Positions 1,523-8,919 of a stretch of 14,358 bases of DNA are shown piece after piece. The translations under genes and the position numbers were made by a program. The notes under the pieces were generated by a model. It was not told the origin of the DNA, ran no database searches, and saw only the letters and a list, made by a program, of their open reading frames with translations. Source of the stretch: a virus. Taxonomy: Duplodnaviria > Heunggongvirae > Uroviricota > Caudoviricetes. Each line of letters begins with the position of its first letter. Positions within the stretch are counted from its first letter, which is position 1. Location: IMG/VR virus record IMGVR_UViG_3300030125_000009. One strand, given 5' to 3'.

Positions 1523-2083
1523 TTAGTGCATGATGTTTGCCATCTCATAGGCGTCAGCCAGCAATTCCATCTCTGACTTGTTCAGCAAGGTGAATTCTTT
1601 CTTGCCTCCAACCACACCATCGGCATGAACGGGGACCAGCCAGGGGTATTTTTCTCTTACTTCAGCCGGTGCTGCATGCTAGTGGTGCCATCTACAAAGG
1701 GGCAATTGCTTTTTGTGACAACCCGGCGCGGTACGACCGGAGATATGGTGCAGAGACACCTCTTCAGATATTACTCCATGCATGTAGCAGGCAATGCAGG
1801 GGAGAGCGCCAAGAGCATTGGCGATGCTCCGTTCCTCCGCTGTCGGTGTTCGCCCCTTCAAGCCACGAGATTTTATCTTTACCGCACTTTTCCGCGTTTT
1901 GCTGGCTGGTGGGCGCTCTTTCTGTTTAGCGATACGACGGTCGATAGAATCCCGCATTTTCTGATATTGCGATTCTCGCCAGGCGGGGTCAGCCAACTTT
2001 TCCCGTTGCCGAGCGATCGCTCGTTCTCTGGCTGCCTTCTGCCACTCGCGGCGCTGTTCAAGTTTTTGTTCGATTGTTTTCAT
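1523..2083 (-). pseudogene. ref: ref (P1 recombination enhancement function, HNH-type nuclease) interrupted by in-frame TAG amber codon at 1681-1679; truncated product 134 aa, full frame 186 codons
   Basis: Translation from ATG 2083 gives MKTIEQKLEQRREWQKAARERAIARQ...CHKKQLPLCRWHH, then TAG, then the same frame continues HAAPAEVREKYPWLVPVHADGVVGGKKEFTLLNKSEMELLADAYEMANIMH to TAA at 1525-1523. The 186-codon total matches the P1 Ref length I recall. Confidence 0.75.
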
Positions 2084-2088
2084 ATGGC

Positions 2089-2114
2089 AAAAAAAAGGCG
2101 GCCTAATGGCCGCC
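2089..2114 (-). terminator. Intrinsic-terminator-like hairpin plus U8 in the ref 5' leader, ending 5 nt before the ref ATG
   Basis: Minus strand reads GGCGGCC-AUUA-GGCCGCC followed by UUUUUUUU then GCCAU-AUG; a 7-bp GC stem and a U-run are seen directly. Confidence 0.5.
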
Positions 2115-2174
2115 AATGATGTCAAGGAGTGAAGTAATGGCAACGTCTTCGTAGTTGACAAAAACTGCGGCTAA

Positions 2175-2198
2175 ATTATAGCAATCAATTAGAGCAAT
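2175..2198 (-). promoter_or_regulatory. C1 operator (Op2-like, 14/17 match to ATTGCTCTAATAAATTT) overlapping a perfect TATAAT -10 element upstream of ref
   Basis: Minus strand ATTGCTCTAATTGATTG at 2198-2182 followed by GCTATAATTTAG (TATAAT at 2180-2175); a second weaker overlapping operator-like copy ATTGCTATAATTTAGCC. Confidence 0.65.
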
Positions 2199-2304
2199 GG
2201 TAGATATTTTGTTTCTCGCGAATCACATTTTTTCACTTCAGTACCTGTGTGCTATACTCCTTCTTGATTGATTGGATGCGGAATACAAACCCGCTCTTTT
2301 GTGC

Positions 2305-2332
2305 AGCCTGGCTCCTTGCCAGGCTTTTTTTT
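2305..2332 (+). terminator. Rho-independent terminator on the plus strand (8-bp stem agcctggc/gccaggct, loop tcctt, T8 run)
   Basis: Hairpin and T-run seen directly; on the minus strand it is preceded by an A-run, so it is unidirectional for plus-strand transcripts. No convincing plus-strand gene lies upstream. Confidence 0.6.
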
Positions 2333-2642
2333 ATTTCATCATGGAAGCTGTTAACGCTTTGGACCTTGCTGAACTGATTGAAAGGGCATTGTTTACCTTA
2401 CCCAGGAGTTCGCCAAATTCCCCCATCACTCTAGTAAGCCCGCGCCGCGCTTCCTCCTCCGTTGCATTCATCACAAAATGTTCAGCACTCCGCATGCTTT
2501 TAACGGGGAACGCAACAGATATCGAGTCGATATCAGGCATCCTATCGCTCAACTTTACGGTGACAATGACAGATGGCGACAGAATATTAGTGCTTACAGA
2601 CAGCACTACATATTTTCCGTCGATGTTGAAATCCTTTCTCAT
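2331..2642 (-). CDS. Hypothetical protein, 103 aa, in the cre-ref intergenic position (position of P1 cra, not verified)
   Basis: ORF with ATG at 2642; a C1 operator match in the same orientation sits just upstream (2659-2675). An antisense plus-strand ORF (2272-2763) overlaps it, so coding strand is not certain; weak ribosome-binding site. Confidence 0.35.
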   Translation of the reverse strand: MRKDFNIDGKYVVLSVSTNILSPSVIVTVKLSDRMPDIDSISVAFPVKSMRSAEHFVMNATEEEARRGLTRVMGEFGELLGKVNNALSISSARSKALTASMMK

Positions 2643-4877: not shown

Positions 4878-5729
4878 ATGATAAATTATGTCTACGGCGA
4901 ACAACTGTACCAGGAGTTCGTCAGCTTCAGGGATCTCTTTCTAAAAAAAGCTGTTGCACGCGCCCAACACGTTGATACAGCCAGCGACGGTCGTCCTGTA
5001 CGCCCGGTTGTCGTTCTACCGTTCAAAGAAACTGACAGCATTCAGGCTGAAATTGATAAATGGACTTTAATGGCGCGGGAACTGGAACAGTACCCAGACC
5101 TCAATATCCCAAAGACTATTTTATATCCAGTGCCTAACATCCTTCGCGGTGTGCGCAAGGTTACAACTTATCAGACAGAAGCTGTGAACAGCGTCAACAT
5201 GACCGCTGGCCGCATTATTCATCTGATTGATAAGGACATTCGCATCCAAAAAAGCGCGGGGATCAATGAGCACAGTGCGAAATACATAGAGAACCTGGAA
5301 GCAACAAAAGAGCTAATGAGGCAGTACCCGGAGGATGAAAAATTCCGTATGCGCGTACACGGCTTTAGCGAAACAATGCTGCGCGTCCATTACATTTCCA
5401 GTAGCCCTAACTACAATGATGGTAAATCAGTTAGTTACCATGTGCCGCTGTGTGGTGTGTTTATCTGCGATGAAACTCTCCGTGATGGAATCATCATCAA
5501 CGGTGAATTCGAGAAAGCAAAATTTAGCCTTTATGACTCTATAGAACCGATCATCTGCGACCGCTGGCCGCAGGCAAAAATATATCGCCTGGCAGATATT
5601 GAAAATGTAAAAAAACAAATTGCCATCACTCGCGAAGAGAAAAAGGTCAAATCAGCCGCATCAGTTACGCGCAGCCGTAAAACCAAGAAGGGGCAGCCAG
5701 TAAACGACAACCCCGAAAGCGCGCAATAA
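4878..5729 (+). CDS. c1: C1 repressor of lysogeny, 283 aa
   Basis: Translation MINYVYGEQLYQEFVSFRDLFLKKAVARAQHVD... at 283 aa matches P1 C1 as I recall it; strong Shine-Dalgarno GGAGGAGG; many copies of its operator are present in the window. Confidence 0.93.
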   Translation: MINYVYGEQLYQEFVSFRDLFLKKAVARAQHVDTASDGRPVRPVVVLPFKETDSIQAEIDKWTLMARELEQYPDLNIPKTILYPVPNILRGVRKVTTYQTEAVNSVNMTAGRIIHLIDKDIRIQKSAGINEHSAKYIENLEATKELMRQYPEDEKFRMRVHGFSETMLRVHYISSSPNYNDGKSVSYHVPLCGVFICDETLRDGIIINGEFEKAKFSLYDSIEPIICDRWPQAKIYRLADIENVKKQIAITREEKKVKSAASVTRSRKTKKGQPVNDNPESAQ

Positions 5730-5761: not shown

Positions 5762-6628
5762 TTATTCAGCCGCCACCGGTTTTAACAAGCCAGCATCGAG
5801 CAGTTTACGCGTCAACCACTGCTGGCCTTTACCCGTTAATTGAGGCGTCAACCGTATCTGGTAGCCATCTTCATCATCCAGCACCACTTCTTTCACCGTG
5901 AAATACCCCGCGTTGATGTACTGCTGGAACGGCACATTTTTACGTCCACCGGACGCTATCAGGATGCCGTTCTCCCGTAACCAGACAAACAGCGCGTTTT
6001 GCTTAAGTCCAACAACCTTTGCAAAATTCCCAATCAGGATCCCTTTAGCTACTGATACCCGGTCGGCAAAATCGACTTTAGGAGCGGCGGCCACCAGCTG
6101 CTGATTTAGCTGGTGGGCTTTCTGTTCCAGAAGCTGCTTTTGTTCAGCCAGTTCGGCAGCCAGGCGCAGAGCTTCTGGAAGCGTCTGGGGGATTGCAACC
6201 GGTTGCTGTTCTTTTTGCCGGAAGTAGCTGTCTTCCAGTTTTTCAAAGAATGCCCATGCCTGATCGGTTTCGAGCATTTTAGCGTGGCGGGCTGCGCCGC
6301 GTTCCGTCCAGAGGATGAGTGAGCGGGCTTTAGGAGAGATAGGATTTTGTGAGTTACTTAAAGTCACCCGCAAATTGTTCAAATCATCTCCAATAACTTT
6401 ATAGAAATGCTTGCCTTCACAAAAACGTTCAGCATTACGGGAAAAGTTCTTCTTGATGTTATCCGCATCTGTCCCATACCCCTTAGCAAGGATCTTAGTT
6501 GTCACTACACGCACTCCCTGCCACTCTAGAACGGGAATTTCATCCGGCTGACTTTGAACAACCACCAGTTCTGATTCCTGAACTAAAGGTGTATTAATTT
6601 TTTCAGATTTAACGTTAGTAGCTTTCAT
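5762..6628 (-). CDS. ant2: Ant2, 288 aa, in-frame internal initiation product of the ant ORF
   Basis: Internal ATG at 6628 (MKATNVKSEK...) has its own strong Shine-Dalgarno AAGGAGG 8 nt upstream, in the same frame as ant1; this mirrors the P1 ant1/ant2 arrangement. Confidence 0.6.
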   Translation of the reverse strand: MKATNVKSEKINTPLVQESELVVVQSQPDEIPVLEWQGVRVVTTKILAKGYGTDADNIKKNFSRNAERFCEGKHFYKVIGDDLNNLRVTLSNSQNPISPKARSLILWTERGAARHAKMLETDQAWAFFEKLEDSYFRQKEQQPVAIPQTLPEALRLAAELAEQKQLLEQKAHQLNQQLVAAAPKVDFADRVSVAKGILIGNFAKVVGLKQNALFVWLRENGILIASGGRKNVPFQQYINAGYFTVKEVVLDDEDGYQIRLTPQLTGKGQQWLTRKLLDAGLLKPVAAE

Positions 6629-6877
6629 TCTGTGTGCCTCCTTGCGTGTTTCGGCTGCGACGGTTGCGTAATTCAGATGCCCCTGTTCGAGCAGGTATTC
6701 ACGGATATCAGACAGCAGGATACGGTGAACAGCGTTCTTGTCCTTTCTCCGGTAAAGTTGTTTGGTGATCATGAAGTAGTTGGCAATAACGCCAGGTATA
6801 TCCCTGGTACTGATACAGGCAGAGTGCTGTTCAATTGCCTCGATCATCTCTTCACGGGTAACTAACGATGTTCTCAT
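5762..6877 (-). CDS. ant1: Antirepressor Ant1, 371 aa (ORF6N/KilA-N-like N-terminal region plus Ant C-terminal domain); a second in-frame start gives Ant2
   Basis: ATG at 6877 preceded by AGGAGGG; the icd stop overlaps it (ATGA). Antirepressor-family domain assignment is from memory of the family, not from a search. Confidence 0.8.
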   Translation of the reverse strand: MRTSLVTREEMIEAIEQHSACISTRDIPGVIANYFMITKQLYRRKDKNAVHRILLSDIREYLLEQGHLNYATVAAETRKEAHRMKATNVKSEKINTPLVQESELVVVQSQPDEIPVLEWQGVRVVTTKILAKGYGTDADNIKKNFSRNAERFCEGKHFYKVIGDDLNNLRVTLSNSQNPISPKARSLILWTERGAARHAKMLETDQAWAFFEKLEDSYFRQKEQQPVAIPQTLPEALRLAAELAEQKQLLEQKAHQLNQQLVAAAPKVDFADRVSVAKGILIGNFAKVVGLKQNALFVWLRENGILIASGGRKNVPFQQYINAGYFTVKEVVLDDEDGYQIRLTPQLTGKGQQWLTRKLLDAGLLKPVAAE

Positions 6878-7095
6878 AGTCCCTCCTGAGCAGAAGCGTT
6901 AACAGGGAGGCACCAGTAACTGAGAGAATTGCGTGAATCAGTGGAAAAACGGGCAGAGAAAATACATGGGGCGTCAGGAAGCTGAGAGCGGGCCTCATCT
7001 TCTGTCGGTGCAATAACGAAGTGATAGTGACGTTTTTGGCAGGAGTAAAAGCGCCAGATAAATTCAGGATGAGTTGGGGTAGGGATAGTAGCCAT
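6874..7095 (-). CDS. icd: Icd-like protein (interference with cell division), 73 aa, translationally coupled to ant1
   Basis: ATG at 7095 preceded by AAGGAGG; product MATIPTPTHPEFIWRFYSCQKRHYHFVIAPTEDEARSQLPDAPCIFSARFSTDSRNSLSYWCLPVNASAQEGL; TGA stop overlaps the ant1 ATG; 73 codons equals the P1 icd length as I recall. Confidence 0.7.
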   Translation of the reverse strand: MATIPTPTHPEFIWRFYSCQKRHYHFVIAPTEDEARSQLPDAPCIFSARFSTDSRNSLSYWCLPVNASAQEGL

Positions 7096-7151
7096 ATTGG
7101 CAGCCTCCTTAGACGTTGGTATGTAACCACCGCAGAAGAGACCAATCTTGC

Positions 7152-7231
7152 TGGCGGTGGACTGTACGGAGTTGGCCTTACTGGCGTCCAAGGTAACCAG
7201 CCTACCCGAAGGTAGCCCCATACAGCCCACC
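7152..7231 (-). ncRNA. c4: Candidate c4-like antisense repressor RNA (about 80 nt, tRNA-like terminal stem, 3' GCCA)
   Basis: On the minus strand, GGUGGGCUGUAU pairs with GUACAGUCCACC as a 12-bp terminal stem, followed by GCCA; internal 5-bp hairpin with UUCG loop; the segment CCUUGGACG is complementary (9 bp, one G-U) to CGUCUAAGG, which overlaps the icd ribosome-binding site. Boundaries are approximate. Confidence 0.45.
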
Positions 7232-7260
7232 ATTGTAGAGGTGTGCGTGTACGCCGATAC

Positions 7261-7283
7261 AAAAAAAAGACGCGAGCGGCGTC
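7261..7283 (-). terminator. Rho-independent terminator downstream of pacB (hairpin GACGC-CGCUC-GCGUC plus U8)
   Basis: Hairpin followed by an 8-U run on the minus strand, about 150 nt after the pacB stop. Confidence 0.6.
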
Positions 7284-7414
7284 TGTATCGCCTTAGACTT
7301 AAGCGGGAGGCCAATCCCGGCACCCGTTTTAATGAGGTGCCTGATAAGCATAAACCGAAAATGCCTCAAGGCGCAAGAGGTCAGGTTCAATGTAACATCG
7401 GCAGTTAAAAAACA

Positions 7415-7434: not shown

Positions 7435-8919
7435 TCATTCATTAAGCCATGCCAGAGCTTCATCAACCTGCGCTTCGTCTTCGACGCTAAGCACTTCATC
7501 TTGGGGAACATAATCCGCCAGCATAGCGAAACAATATGTATCCCAATGGTCTGGTGAGTGCAGGTTGAGTTTTTTCTTCATATCCTCCTTACTCATCACC
7601 TTCCATTGACCTGCGGAGTTAATCCCTACAGGGATTTTCGACGCTTCCTCAATAGTTTCATTACCCTTATCCAGTCTCATACGACCAGATTTTACGGCCT
7701 CTGCGGCTTGAACGTTGGCATAAGCACGTTTATCAAAGTACAGGCTCTTATCTTCACGGCTATGCATCTTTTTACCCCAGCGTATACGCTGTACGGTAAT
7801 ACCATAATACTCGTACATCAGATCCGCCGTTGCTTTACCCAGGCCATCGCCGTCTATCGCTATGGTAATATTTGGGAATCGCTCAGGATTACATTCTGCG
7901 AAAATTTTGGCGGCAAGCTGCGTTTCTGTAACGTCTGTGTATTCCAGCATTCGATAGTTGATTACACGGCGTTTATTTCTCTGGCCGGACACCATCATGA
8001 TATTGATAACGGACTTATCCCTTCCCGTACCACCAGCAACGTCCACACATGCAAGCCAGCCCCATCCTTTGGCAATCTTGACTTTCCGCCGCGTTGCACG
8101 TTCAACCTCATCACGTCCAAGAAGGAAGCCATCCTGTGATTTAGGGAATAGGCCGCGTACCTTAATCATGTACATAGGGTTATCGCGCCCGCCGTACTCC
8201 GCCAGCTTCATTTTGATAAATGCTGGCGTTACCAGCGGTGATTCCTCACTGTTAAGCGTGATCGCCGTATAAACGCCATCAGGGTTACCAGGACGCTTGG
8301 CCAGTTTATGGTGAGTATCGTAGAAATAGCCGCTTGGGCGTGTAGGCTGTGACAGTAATAAGATGCGGTTATCCTGTCCGGTAAGAGCACCGGTGATGAT
8401 ACCGAAAGCTCTATCACTGACACCGGAGGCTTCATCGATAATATACAGAAGATGATCTGCGTGTTCACCGGCGAGAGCTTCTTCACTTCCCAGACGAAAG
8501 CCCTTCGGTACTACAGTCCATACACCTTTACCAGTAACCTCATAGAAAGCGGTTTCTGTCAGAACAAAATAATCAGCAAGCCACGGAAAACGGCTGGTGG
8601 CCGTAGCCCAGTTTATCTTGATGTACTTGAATATACCGGTCATTACCTGCTGAATTTTGTTCGCAACGATAATGGCGCGGGCACCGGGATACATGATTAT
8701 GAACAACATGATCATGATAGAAGTCATGTCTGATTTCCCGGTACCGTGACCAGACGAAACAGATGTCTTGCTACCCTGTTCCTGCACAGACTCAATAATC
8801 AGATCCTGCTGCCAGGTAGGTGTTTTGCCGAACAAAACATCAGCGGCAGCAATCCAGTCATAACGATATAGCGCCACCAGCTCGCGCCAACGTGGATCCG
8901 TTACGCAACTTCTGGCCAT
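7435..8919 (-). CDS. pacB: PacB, pacase (terminase) large subunit, 494 aa
   Basis: Translation [22 protein letters not shown]...; size and position (after pacA, start overlapping the pacA stop as TAATG) match P1 pacB. Confidence 0.9.

What the first reader, a model, noticed from the sequence alone, without database searches (positions are those of the whole stretch)
2084..2200. ref leader contains a terminator-like hairpin directly abutting the start codon, with no Shine-Dalgarno
A perfect TATAAT -10 overlapped by C1 operator matches (2175-2198) is followed about 85 nt later by GGCGGCC-AUUA-GGCCGCC plus U8, ending 5 nt before the ref ATG. This looks like an attenuator: transcripts from the C1-controlled promoter would mostly stop before ref. 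An upstream GCCGC could compete for the 5' arm as an antiterminator. It might alternatively be the terminator of the upstream cre/cra transcript.
Basis: inference. Interest (0 to 1): 0.4.

Follow-up and report, generated by a model that had tools for sequence, protein, structure and literature searches.

The report
Known terminator in phage P1 ref leader
A strong transcription-stop hairpin sits between the repressor-controlled promoter and the start of the phage P1 ref nuclease gene; it is real and conserved, but it was already described as the ref "attenuator" in 1988, so it is confirmation, not discovery.

Summary
On the minus strand, a C1 operator (2198-2182) and a perfect TATAAT (2180-2175) are followed by a leader of about 85 nt. 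The leader ends in GGCGGCC-AUUA-GGCCGCC (2114-2097) plus U8 (2096-2089), 5 nt before the ref ATG (2083-2081). There is no Shine-Dalgarno sequence.

The window is a P1-like plasmid prophage, 96.8% identical to P1 across this region. The hairpin is not chance: no element of this quality occurred in 300 shuffles. In 95 leaders sampled without reference to the hairpin, every stem change keeps pairing. A Salmonella/Klebsiella sister lineage (Ref 65-68% identical) has the same layout with a different stem, including two compensatory pairs.

Best reading: this is the published ref attenuator (Windle, Laufer and Hays 1988). It is an intrinsic terminator that stops most leftward transcription before the toxic nuclease gene.

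Qualifications:
- An annotated second promoter (P1ref) would start transcripts inside the hairpin.
- The upstream gene is c8, not cra.
- Plasmids that lack ref still keep the promoter, leader and terminator.

Novelty: already known. Interest is low.

The parts
2198..2203 (-). -35 of the C1-controlled promoter P2ref (CTACCA, a weak match)
   Evidence: Mapped from the AF234172 annotation, P1 1957-1962. Window coordinate = 4160 - P1 coordinate.
2182..2198 (-). C1 repressor operator Oref (ATTGCTCTAATTGATTG)
   Evidence: Matches the operator consensus with 3 mismatches; 6 matches in the window against 0.06 expected. Annotated as Oref in P1 and P7.
2175..2180 (-). -10 TATAAT of P2ref
   Evidence: Invariant in 66 unique P1-type sequences.
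2166..2168 (-). Expected transcription start of P2ref (G2168 or A2166). Inferred, not mapped.
   Evidence: Inference from the usual 7-nt distance between the -10 and the start.
2167..2171 (-). It is the 5' part of a 17-nt imperfect inverted repeat with 2125-2109.
   Evidence: I1. It is the nascent-RNA MFE only if the RNA starts at or upstream of 2171. Variable among relatives.
2145..2165 (-). Predicted 5' stem-loop of the leader (GUUUUUGU-CAACU-ACGAAGAC)
   Evidence: Not conserved in the L005-type leader.
2138..2144 (-). GUUGCCA. It pairs with UGGCGGC of the 5' arm (7 bp, 2 G.U) in the nascent RNA. It also contains the -35 (TTGCCA, 2143-2138) of the predicted promoter P1ref.
   Evidence: duplex -10.5 kcal/mol, 2.8% of shuffles as good; nascent MFE -14.9. 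Also.
2120..2129 (-). CUCCUUGACA, part of a CUCC(Y)UGA motif kept just 5' of the hairpin in three Ref lineages. Function unknown.
2116..2124 (-). Extended -10 (TGaCATCAT) of the predicted promoter P1ref. Its start would fall at about 2111-2107, inside the hairpin.
   Evidence: Promoter scan, 9 of 12 matches with TG. Annotated as 'predicted sigma 70 promoter P1ref' in AF234172.
2097..2114 (-). Terminator hairpin: 7 G-C pairs with an AUUA loop
2089..2096 (-). U8 tract of the terminator
   Evidence: T7-T10 in relatives with ref, T6 in relatives without ref.
2084..2088 (-). 5-nt spacer GCCAU with no Shine-Dalgarno
1523..2083 (-). ref gene. The ATG is at 2083-2081. Here the gene is interrupted by an in-frame amber codon at 1681-1679 (codon 135).
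   Evidence: Indels upstream of the ATG in relatives break the open upstream frame, so the ATG is the true start.

Best explanation
This is the ref leader attenuator of phage P1, an intrinsic (Rho-independent) terminator placed after the promoter and directly before the coding sequence.

Shown:
- The region has the anatomy of a strong terminator: 7 G-C pairs, a tetraloop and U8.
- It lies 61-86 nt downstream of a C1 operator and -10.
- It lies 5 nt upstream of an SD-less ATG.
- The stem is under selection for pairing.
- The same layout recurs in diverged lineages with different stem sequences.

Inferred:
- When C1 (with its corepressor Bof/Lxc) releases P2ref, most transcripts end at 2089 as an RNA of about 80 nt. 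Only a read-through fraction carries ref, which keeps the dose of a toxic RecA-dependent nuclease low.
- The same hairpin also stops read-through from cre and c8, which have no strong terminator of their own on this strand.
- Read-through may be helped a little by nascent pairings that hold the 5' arm. These are GUUGCCA:UGGCGGC, or GCCGC:GCGGC plus UGUCAA:UUGACA if the RNA starts further upstream. Both are 7-8.5 kcal/mol weaker than the terminator fold, so I expect leaky termination rather than a clean switch.
- Translation of read-through mRNA starts without an SD on an A/U-rich, largely open region.
For: - The window is P1-like. It is 96.8% identical to P1 1860-2200, where P2ref, Oref, P1ref and ref are annotated.
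- Hairpin stability: -16.2 kcal/mol, z = -4.25. None of this quality in 300 shuffles.
- Unbiased sample anchored on the first 21 nt of ref: 95 usable P1-type leaders. Of these, 89 have a perfect stem and 6 have stem changes that are all wobble-preserving. Loops vary (ATTA, ATCA, TAAA) and the tract is T7-T10.
- Column variability: arms 3 of 14 variable columns, loop 3 of 4, spacer 3 of 6.
- Sister lineage (L145-L152, Ref 65-68% identical): C1 operator plus TATAAT, a leader of about 55 nt, GACGGTC-TTCG/TACG-GACCGTC plus T5-8, then 10-13 nt to ATG or GTG.
- Across lineages, 98.8% of cells are paired and two pairs change on both sides.
- Pantoea-type leaders (L128, L223) have an operator, about 45 nt, then GCCGCC-TCCG-GGCGGC plus T7.
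- The only lineage with a broken stem (L003/L232) has also lost the -10.
- Literature: the title of Windle et al. 1988 states attenuator-antiterminator control of ref. ref mRNA rises 73-fold after C1 inactivation, so some transcripts do pass (PMC4713147).
Against: - No transcript ends or starts were available, so termination efficiency is inferred from anatomy only.
- The 1988 paper could not be read. Its deletion data are known to me only through the title.
- The predicted promoter P1ref would start inside the 5' arm and bypass the terminator altogether.
- Antiterminator pairings are not supported by covariation and are weak or absent in L005, L002, L145 and L128.
- There is no leader peptide, and no known factor would regulate read-through.
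- Plasmids without ref keep the module, so its role is not tied only to ref.
Confidence: 0.6

Rival explanations
1. The hairpin is mainly the terminator and insulator of the upstream cre-c8 module, including the short P2ref transcript. It marks a module boundary. ref itself would be expressed from the internal promoter P1ref, whose transcripts start inside the hairpin and cannot form it.
For: - No strong minus-strand terminator lies between cre and this hairpin. The hairpin after c8 has its U tract on the plus strand only.
- In 56 of 707 P1-like plasmids, ref is replaced by convergent antirepressor and icd genes. The junction lies exactly at the end of the T tract, and the hairpin is intact in 6 of 7 distinct versions.
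- P1ref scores 9 of 12 with an extended -10 and is annotated in AF234172.
Against: - The hairpin always lies downstream of the C1-controlled promoter, never between c8 and that promoter, in three lineages.
- P1ref is only predicted. Its -10 is not recognisable in the sister lineage.
- ref mRNA is induced 73-fold when C1 is inactivated, which points to the C1-controlled promoter (PMC4713147).
- A second class of plasmids without ref lacks the hairpin entirely (L004).
Confidence: 0.2
2. The hairpin plus U8 is chiefly a translation-initiation element for an mRNA without a Shine-Dalgarno. The U tract would serve as an S1-binding or standby site, with the hairpin holding it open. The model is the hairpin-U8 element in the E. 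coli rnd (RNase D) leader (Zhang and Deutscher 1992, recalled from memory, not checked here).
For: - No SD is present.
- The U tract ends 5 nt before the AUG, followed by A-rich codons that are 76% unpaired.
- Weak or absent SD together with a hairpin-U tract 10-13 nt upstream is also seen in the sister lineage.
Against: - In Pantoea-type leaders the hairpin lies 100 nt from the ATG.
- The hairpin is kept without any downstream ref gene.
- One sister variant has a normal GGAG after the U tract (L152).
- This role does not exclude termination.
Confidence: 0.1
3. The promoter, leader and terminator form a stand-alone, C1-repressed small RNA gene of about 80 nt that acts in trans. ref would simply be read through from it.
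For: - The complete unit persists in plasmids without ref.
- Its 3' end, a hairpin plus U6-U8, resembles an Hfq-binding module.
- A CU-rich single-stranded motif, CUCC(Y)UGA, is kept in three lineages.
- P1 already uses a leader-derived regulatory RNA, C4, which was found in this window.
Against: - No Rfam family matches; only sub-threshold, terminator-driven hits appear.
- No target was identified.
- One lineage without ref is decaying (L003/L232).
- Another class without ref truncates the leader (L004).
- Retention next to a convergent operon is explained just as well by the need for a terminator there.
Confidence: 0.08

Closest known systems
Phage P1 ref regulatory region (Windle, Laufer and Hays 1988, J Bacteriol 170:4881; P2ref/Oref/P1ref annotation of Lobocka et al. 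2004 in AF234172)
   Same: It is the same locus. Identity is 96.8% over P1 1860-2200. The operator, the -10, the hairpin, the U8 and the ATG are identical. [quoted passage not shown]
   Different: This copy carries an amber codon in ref (codon 135) and a T-to-G change in the reported H-NS site. The hairpin is not annotated in the P1, P7 or phiW39 GenBank records.
E. coli ampC attenuator / frd operon terminator (Jaurin et al. 1981; Grundstrom and Jaurin 1982; recalled from memory)
   Same: One intrinsic terminator lies downstream of the promoter of the next gene. It serves both as terminator of the upstream unit and as attenuator of the downstream gene, with no leader peptide.
   Different: The ampC attenuator was described as growth-rate dependent, and ampC has a normal ribosome-binding site. 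Here the promoter is repressor-controlled and the gene has no SD. There is no sequence relation.
E. coli rnd (RNase D) leader hairpin plus U8 (Zhang and Deutscher 1989, 1992; recalled from memory)
   Same: A GC-rich hairpin followed by eight U residues lies between the promoter and the initiation codon and looks like a terminator.
   Different: In rnd the element was reported to be needed for translation and not to terminate. Neither property has been tested for ref here.
Classical ribosome-mediated attenuators (trp, his, pyrBI)
   Same: A leader terminator is present, with alternative pairings that can hold its 5' arm.
   Different: There is no leader peptide ORF, and no frame is conserved through the leader. 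The alternative pairings are weaker than the terminator and are not supported by covariation.
P1 immI C4 antisense RNA (Rfam RF01695)
   Same: It is a regulatory RNA made from the 5' part of a C1-controlled transcript in the same phage. It is present in this window at 7150-7237.
   Different: C4 is processed from a longer transcript and has defined targets. The ref leader has no known target and no Rfam match.

Membership tests
Intrinsic (Rho-independent) terminator | GC-rich stem of 5-12 bp with a loop of 3-8 nt | tested here: met
   7 G-C pairs with a 4-nt loop; -16.2 kcal/mol, z = -4.25.
Intrinsic (Rho-independent) terminator | U-rich tract immediately 3' of the stem on the transcribed strand | tested here: met
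   U8 directly after the stem. T6-T10 in all relatives.
Intrinsic (Rho-independent) terminator | Stem pairing maintained in evolution | tested here: met
   98.8% of cells paired, two pairs changed on both sides, four wobble changes, and 0 of 500 shuffles reach the observed score. In the unbiased sample, all 6 stem variants out of 95 leaders keep pairing. Caveat: the hairpins of the two lineages may not be homologous base by base.
Intrinsic (Rho-independent) terminator | RNA 3' ends at the U tract in vivo or in vitro | not testable with these tools
   No transcript-end data for P1 were found in the held literature.
Regulated attenuator with antiterminator | Mutually exclusive alternative structure that sequesters the 5' arm | tested here: inconclusive
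   Two candidates form in the nascent RNA (-14.9 and -17.1 kcal/mol), but the terminator fold wins by 7-8.5 kcal/mol. Duplex better than shuffles in the window and L146 (2.8%), but not in L005, L002, L145 or L128. No covariation.
Regulated attenuator with antiterminator | A sensor (leader peptide, ligand, protein or tRNA) that chooses between the structures | tested here: not met
   No leader ORF with a start codon in the two other frames. The ref-frame extension is broken by indels in relatives. No riboswitch or leader family in Rfam. A protein factor cannot be excluded.
P1 ref regulatory region | Orthology to P1 c8-ref intergenic DNA, with Oref and P2ref | tested here: met
   96.8% identity, same gene order cra-cre-c8-ref-mat.
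C1-controlled promoter | 17-bp asymmetric C1 operator within the promoter | tested here: met
   2198-2182, 3 mismatches; 6 matches in the window against 0.06 expected.
Hfq-type small RNA gene | Own promoter and terminator, a discrete stable transcript, and a trans target | tested here: inconclusive
   Promoter and terminator are present, and the unit is kept without ref. No Rfam match, no target found, and no expression data.

The most novel reading that the evidence does not exclude
The C1-repressed promoter, the leader of about 80 nt and the terminator form an independent small RNA gene. Its conserved CU-rich motif CUCC(Y)UGA would act in trans after prophage induction, for example on Shine-Dalgarno regions. 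ref would be only a read-through passenger. This would explain why the unit survives intact in P1-like plasmids that have lost ref, and why the same operator, short RNA and terminator layout recurs in three diverged lineages.
Probability: 0.08. Interest if true: 0.55.

Novelty: already known. Interest (0 to 1): 0.18.

Why it matters
Ref is a RecA-dependent nuclease. It harms the host, lowers lysogenisation and sharpens killing by ciprofloxacin (PMC4713147), so how tightly its dose is limited matters for P1 biology and for phage-antibiotic synergy.

The attenuator has not been examined with modern transcript mapping, and it is missing from the genome annotations. Three points are new here, all modest:
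- The operator, short leader, strong terminator and SD-less start layout is conserved by structure in other P1-like lineages.
- About 8% of P1-like plasmids keep the layout without ref.
- An annotated internal promoter could bypass the terminator.

All three are directly testable, but none changes the picture of a known kind of control.

Tried and rejected
- **Leader peptide (trp-type attenuation): rejected.** The two non-ref frames have no ATG, GTG or TTG start. The open ref-frame extension back to TTG 2161 is broken by +1/-1 indels in relatives.
- **N-terminally extended Ref: rejected** for the same reason.
- **Known RNA family: none.** Rfam gathering thresholds gave only C4 and isrK elsewhere in the window. 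The permissive search gave only sub-threshold, terminator-driven sRNA hits.
- **The two divergent promoter-terminator units (2089-2180 minus strand, 2230-2333 plus strand) as an inverted duplication: no real similarity**.
- **Pairing between the putative plus-strand RNA and the ref leader: not better than shuffles,** p = 0.32.
- **Reading the primary papers:** Windle 1988, Lobocka 2004, Lu 1989, Laufer 1989, Gruenig 2011 and Schaefer and Hays 1990 are not held. GenBank M23246 and M27041 are not in the collections.
- **A P1vir RNA-seq paper** has nothing on ref.
- **My first collection scan (a 14-base pattern) was too unspecific** and returned mostly chance matches. I filtered it by BLAST.
- **More distant Ref homologues (45-55% identity)** sit inside operons or behind ordinary intergenic terminators and carry no leader terminator. 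The feature is therefore confined to P1-like plasmid prophages.

Full report
**What the window is.** The minus strand carries cra (3953-3732), cre (3724-2693), c8 (2642-2331), ref (from 2083) and mat, in the order found at the left end of phage P1. The 1400-2800 stretch is 97% identical to phages RCS47 and JL22 and 94.8% identical to P1. The c8-ref intergenic region is 96.8% identical to P1 1860-2200. No plasmid in PLSDB is identical to the whole window; the best match is 98%. The window is therefore a P1-like plasmid prophage. P1 coordinates convert as window = 4160 - P1.

**Check of the observation.**
- The C1 operator ATTGCTCTAATTGATTG lies at 2198-2182. It has 3 mismatches to the consensus. 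The window has 6 such matches against 0.06 expected.
- TATAAT lies at 2180-2175.
- The hairpin is GGCGGCC-ATTA-GGCCGCC at 2114-2097, followed by T8 at 2096-2089, GCCAT, and ATG at 2083-2081.
- The hairpin folds at -16.2 kcal/mol, z = -4.25, and takes 99% of the ensemble. It appears in every leader fold.
- Under strict criteria the whole 14.4 kb window has just two such elements. None occurred in 300 shuffles.
- There is no Shine-Dalgarno: the best anti-SD duplex in -13..-1 is +2.2 kcal/mol.

Three corrections apply. The good operator lies in the spacer and -35 rather than over the -10. The second "operator match" over the -10 is poor. The upstream gene is c8, not cra.

**Is the ATG the real start?** In this window the ref frame stays open upstream to TTG 2161. 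In relatives, single-base indels occur in the leader, and the T tract varies from T7 to T10 with GCCAT or GACCAT after it. No indels occur after the ATG. The extension is therefore not conserved, and ATG 2083 is the start, as annotated in P1.

**Conservation within the P1 type.** I sampled leaders without reference to the hairpin by anchoring on the first 21 nt of ref in IMG/VR.
- Of 98 sequences, two were unrelated chance matches (L154 and L169, a different protein) and one contained Ns, leaving 95.
- 89 have the perfect stem.
- Six have stem changes, and all six keep pairing through G.U: GGCCGCT in 4, GGCCGTT in 1 and GGCGGCT in 1.
- Loops are ATTA, ATCA or TAAA.
- Among 66 unique sequences, the arms vary in 3 of 14 columns (minor-allele fraction 0.002-0.011), the loop in 3 of 4, the spacer in 3 of 6, and the -10 in none.

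**Conservation in other lineages.** Ref homologues of 65-68% identity occur in Klebsiella and Salmonella P1-like plasmids (L145-L152).
- They have the same layout with different sequence. The upstream gene's stop codon is followed by ATTGCTCTAATA..TATAAT and a leader of about 55 nt. Then come GACGGTC-TTCG/TACG-G(A/G)CCGTC, T5-8, and 10-13 nt before ATG or GTG.
- Relative to P1, pair 2 is G-C to A-U and pair 6 is C-G to U-A.
- On a 12-sequence hairpin alignment, 98.8% of cells pair, two pairs change on both sides, and no shuffle reaches the observed score.
- The caveat is that the two hairpins may be analogous rather than strictly homologous. The flanking CUCC(Y)UGAC motif aligns slightly differently in the two lineages.
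- Pantoea-type elements (L128, L223; Ref 56-60% identical) have an operator-like site, about 45 nt, GCCGCC-TCCG-GGCGGC plus T7, and then about 100 nt before the ATG.
- Ref homologues of 45-55% identity in other contexts have no leader terminator.

**Relatives without ref.** 56 of about 707 P1-like plasmids that match this region have lost ref. In them the operator, TATAAT, leader, hairpin and T6 are followed directly by the stop codon of a convergent KilAC antirepressor-icd operon.
- Six distinct versions are intact, with loops GAAA, GCAA or ATTA.
- One lineage (L003/L232) has a 13-nt deletion between the direct repeats ATTGCT(C/A)TAATT that removes TATAAT. The same lineage has an A.C mismatch in the stem. 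This is a single case, but it fits a terminator needed mainly while the promoter fires.
- A second class without ref (L004) loses homology 25 nt before the hairpin.

**Alternative structures.**
- If the RNA starts at the usual 7 nt after the -10 (G2168) or at A2166, the nascent transcript up to the loop folds with GUUGCCA (2144-2138) paired to UGGCGGC of the 5' arm (-14.9 kcal/mol). The duplex is -10.5 kcal/mol, and 2.8% of shuffles are as good.
- In the complete leader the terminator fold is better by 7-8.5 kcal/mol.
- Comparable pairings exist in L146 and L147 (ACUGUCA:UGACGGU) but not in L005, L002, L145 or L128. No covariation supports any of them.
- There is no leader peptide.

I therefore expect leaky, largely constitutive termination. 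A regulated switch is possible but not shown.

**Complications.** The P1 GenBank record predicts a second promoter, P1ref. Its -35 is TTGCCA at 2143-2138 and its -10 is CATCAT at 2121-2116, preceded by TG. The scan here scores it 9 of 12. Its start would fall at about 2111-2107, leaving at most 3 stem pairs, so such transcripts would escape the terminator. Its -35 coincides with the GUUGCCA antiterminator strand, so conservation of that block is ambiguous. The -10 is not recognisable in the sister lineage.

On the minus strand no strong terminator lies between cre and the leader hairpin. The hairpin just after c8 has its U tract on the plus strand only. The leader hairpin is therefore probably also the end of cre and c8 transcripts.

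**Literature.**
[quoted passage not shown] The paper itself is not held.
- PMC3973344 states that ref transcription is under c1 control.
- PMC4713147 reports 73-fold induction of ref mRNA after C1 inactivation, H-NS binding to the 5' region, and "one of the ref promoters" being occluded by C1.
- The hairpin is not annotated in the P1, P7 or phiW39 records.
- The analogies to ampC/frd and to rnd come from my own memory and were not checked here.

**Verdict.** The feature is real, is strongly non-random and is selected for pairing. It is best read as the known ref attenuator, probably doubling as the terminator of the upstream unit.

Noticed in passing
window 2230-2333, + strand: This is a candidate small RNA gene divergent from Pref. 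A promoter-like TTTTCA-17-TGcTATACT (2230-2258) is followed by about 70 nt ending in AGCCTGGC-TCCTT-GCCAGGCT plus T8 (2305-2333). That terminator is the only other strict-criteria terminator in the window. It folds at -23.2 kcal/mol, z = -3.6. The region is almost invariant in P1-type relatives, is antisense to the c8 3' end, and is not annotated in P1. No significant pairing to the ref leader.
   Followed up: partly
window 1679-1681, - strand: ref carries an in-frame amber codon at codon 135 (CAG to TAG, Gln in the conserved HHQH motif). A non-suppressing host would make a 134-aa Ref lacking the C-terminal part of the HNH domain. The intact allele of the same variant is in L176. L185 has a frameshifted ref, so ref decays repeatedly in these plasmids.
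   Followed up: partly
window 2212-2218, - strand: The H-NS site reported in the P1 ref 5' region (CGATAAA, PMC4713147) reads CGAGAAA here.
   Followed up: no
L002 1590-1790; also L113, L064, L023, L230, L231, L003/L232: About 8% of P1-like plasmids (56 of 707) have ref replaced by a convergent KilAC antirepressor-icd operon. Its stop codon lies 2-3 nt after the leader T tract. One lineage lost the -10 through a 13-nt deletion between the direct repeats ATTGCT(C/A)TAATT and also has a stem mismatch.
   Followed up: yes
window 2120-2129; L145-L152; L128: A CUCC(Y)UGA motif sits immediately 5' of the terminator in three Ref lineages whose leaders are otherwise diverged. In the sister lineage it is complementary to the G-rich or SD-like bases just after the U tract (GGAG in L152). 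Its function is unknown.
   Followed up: partly
window 7150-7340, - strand: Rfam finds a C4 antisense RNA (75.9 bits) and an isrK-like RNA (60.8 bits) between a pacB-like ORF (7435-8919) and ORFs 6874-7323 and 5762-6877. These ORFs end next to c1 (4878-5729, + strand). So an immI-like module lies beside immC in this element.
   Followed up: no
window 2030-2096, - strand: In read-through mRNA, the end of the U tract, GCCAU and the AUG can pair with GUGGCAGAA at about codons 13-16. The AUG is only 49% unpaired in the ensemble, a possible extra brake on translation.
   Followed up: no
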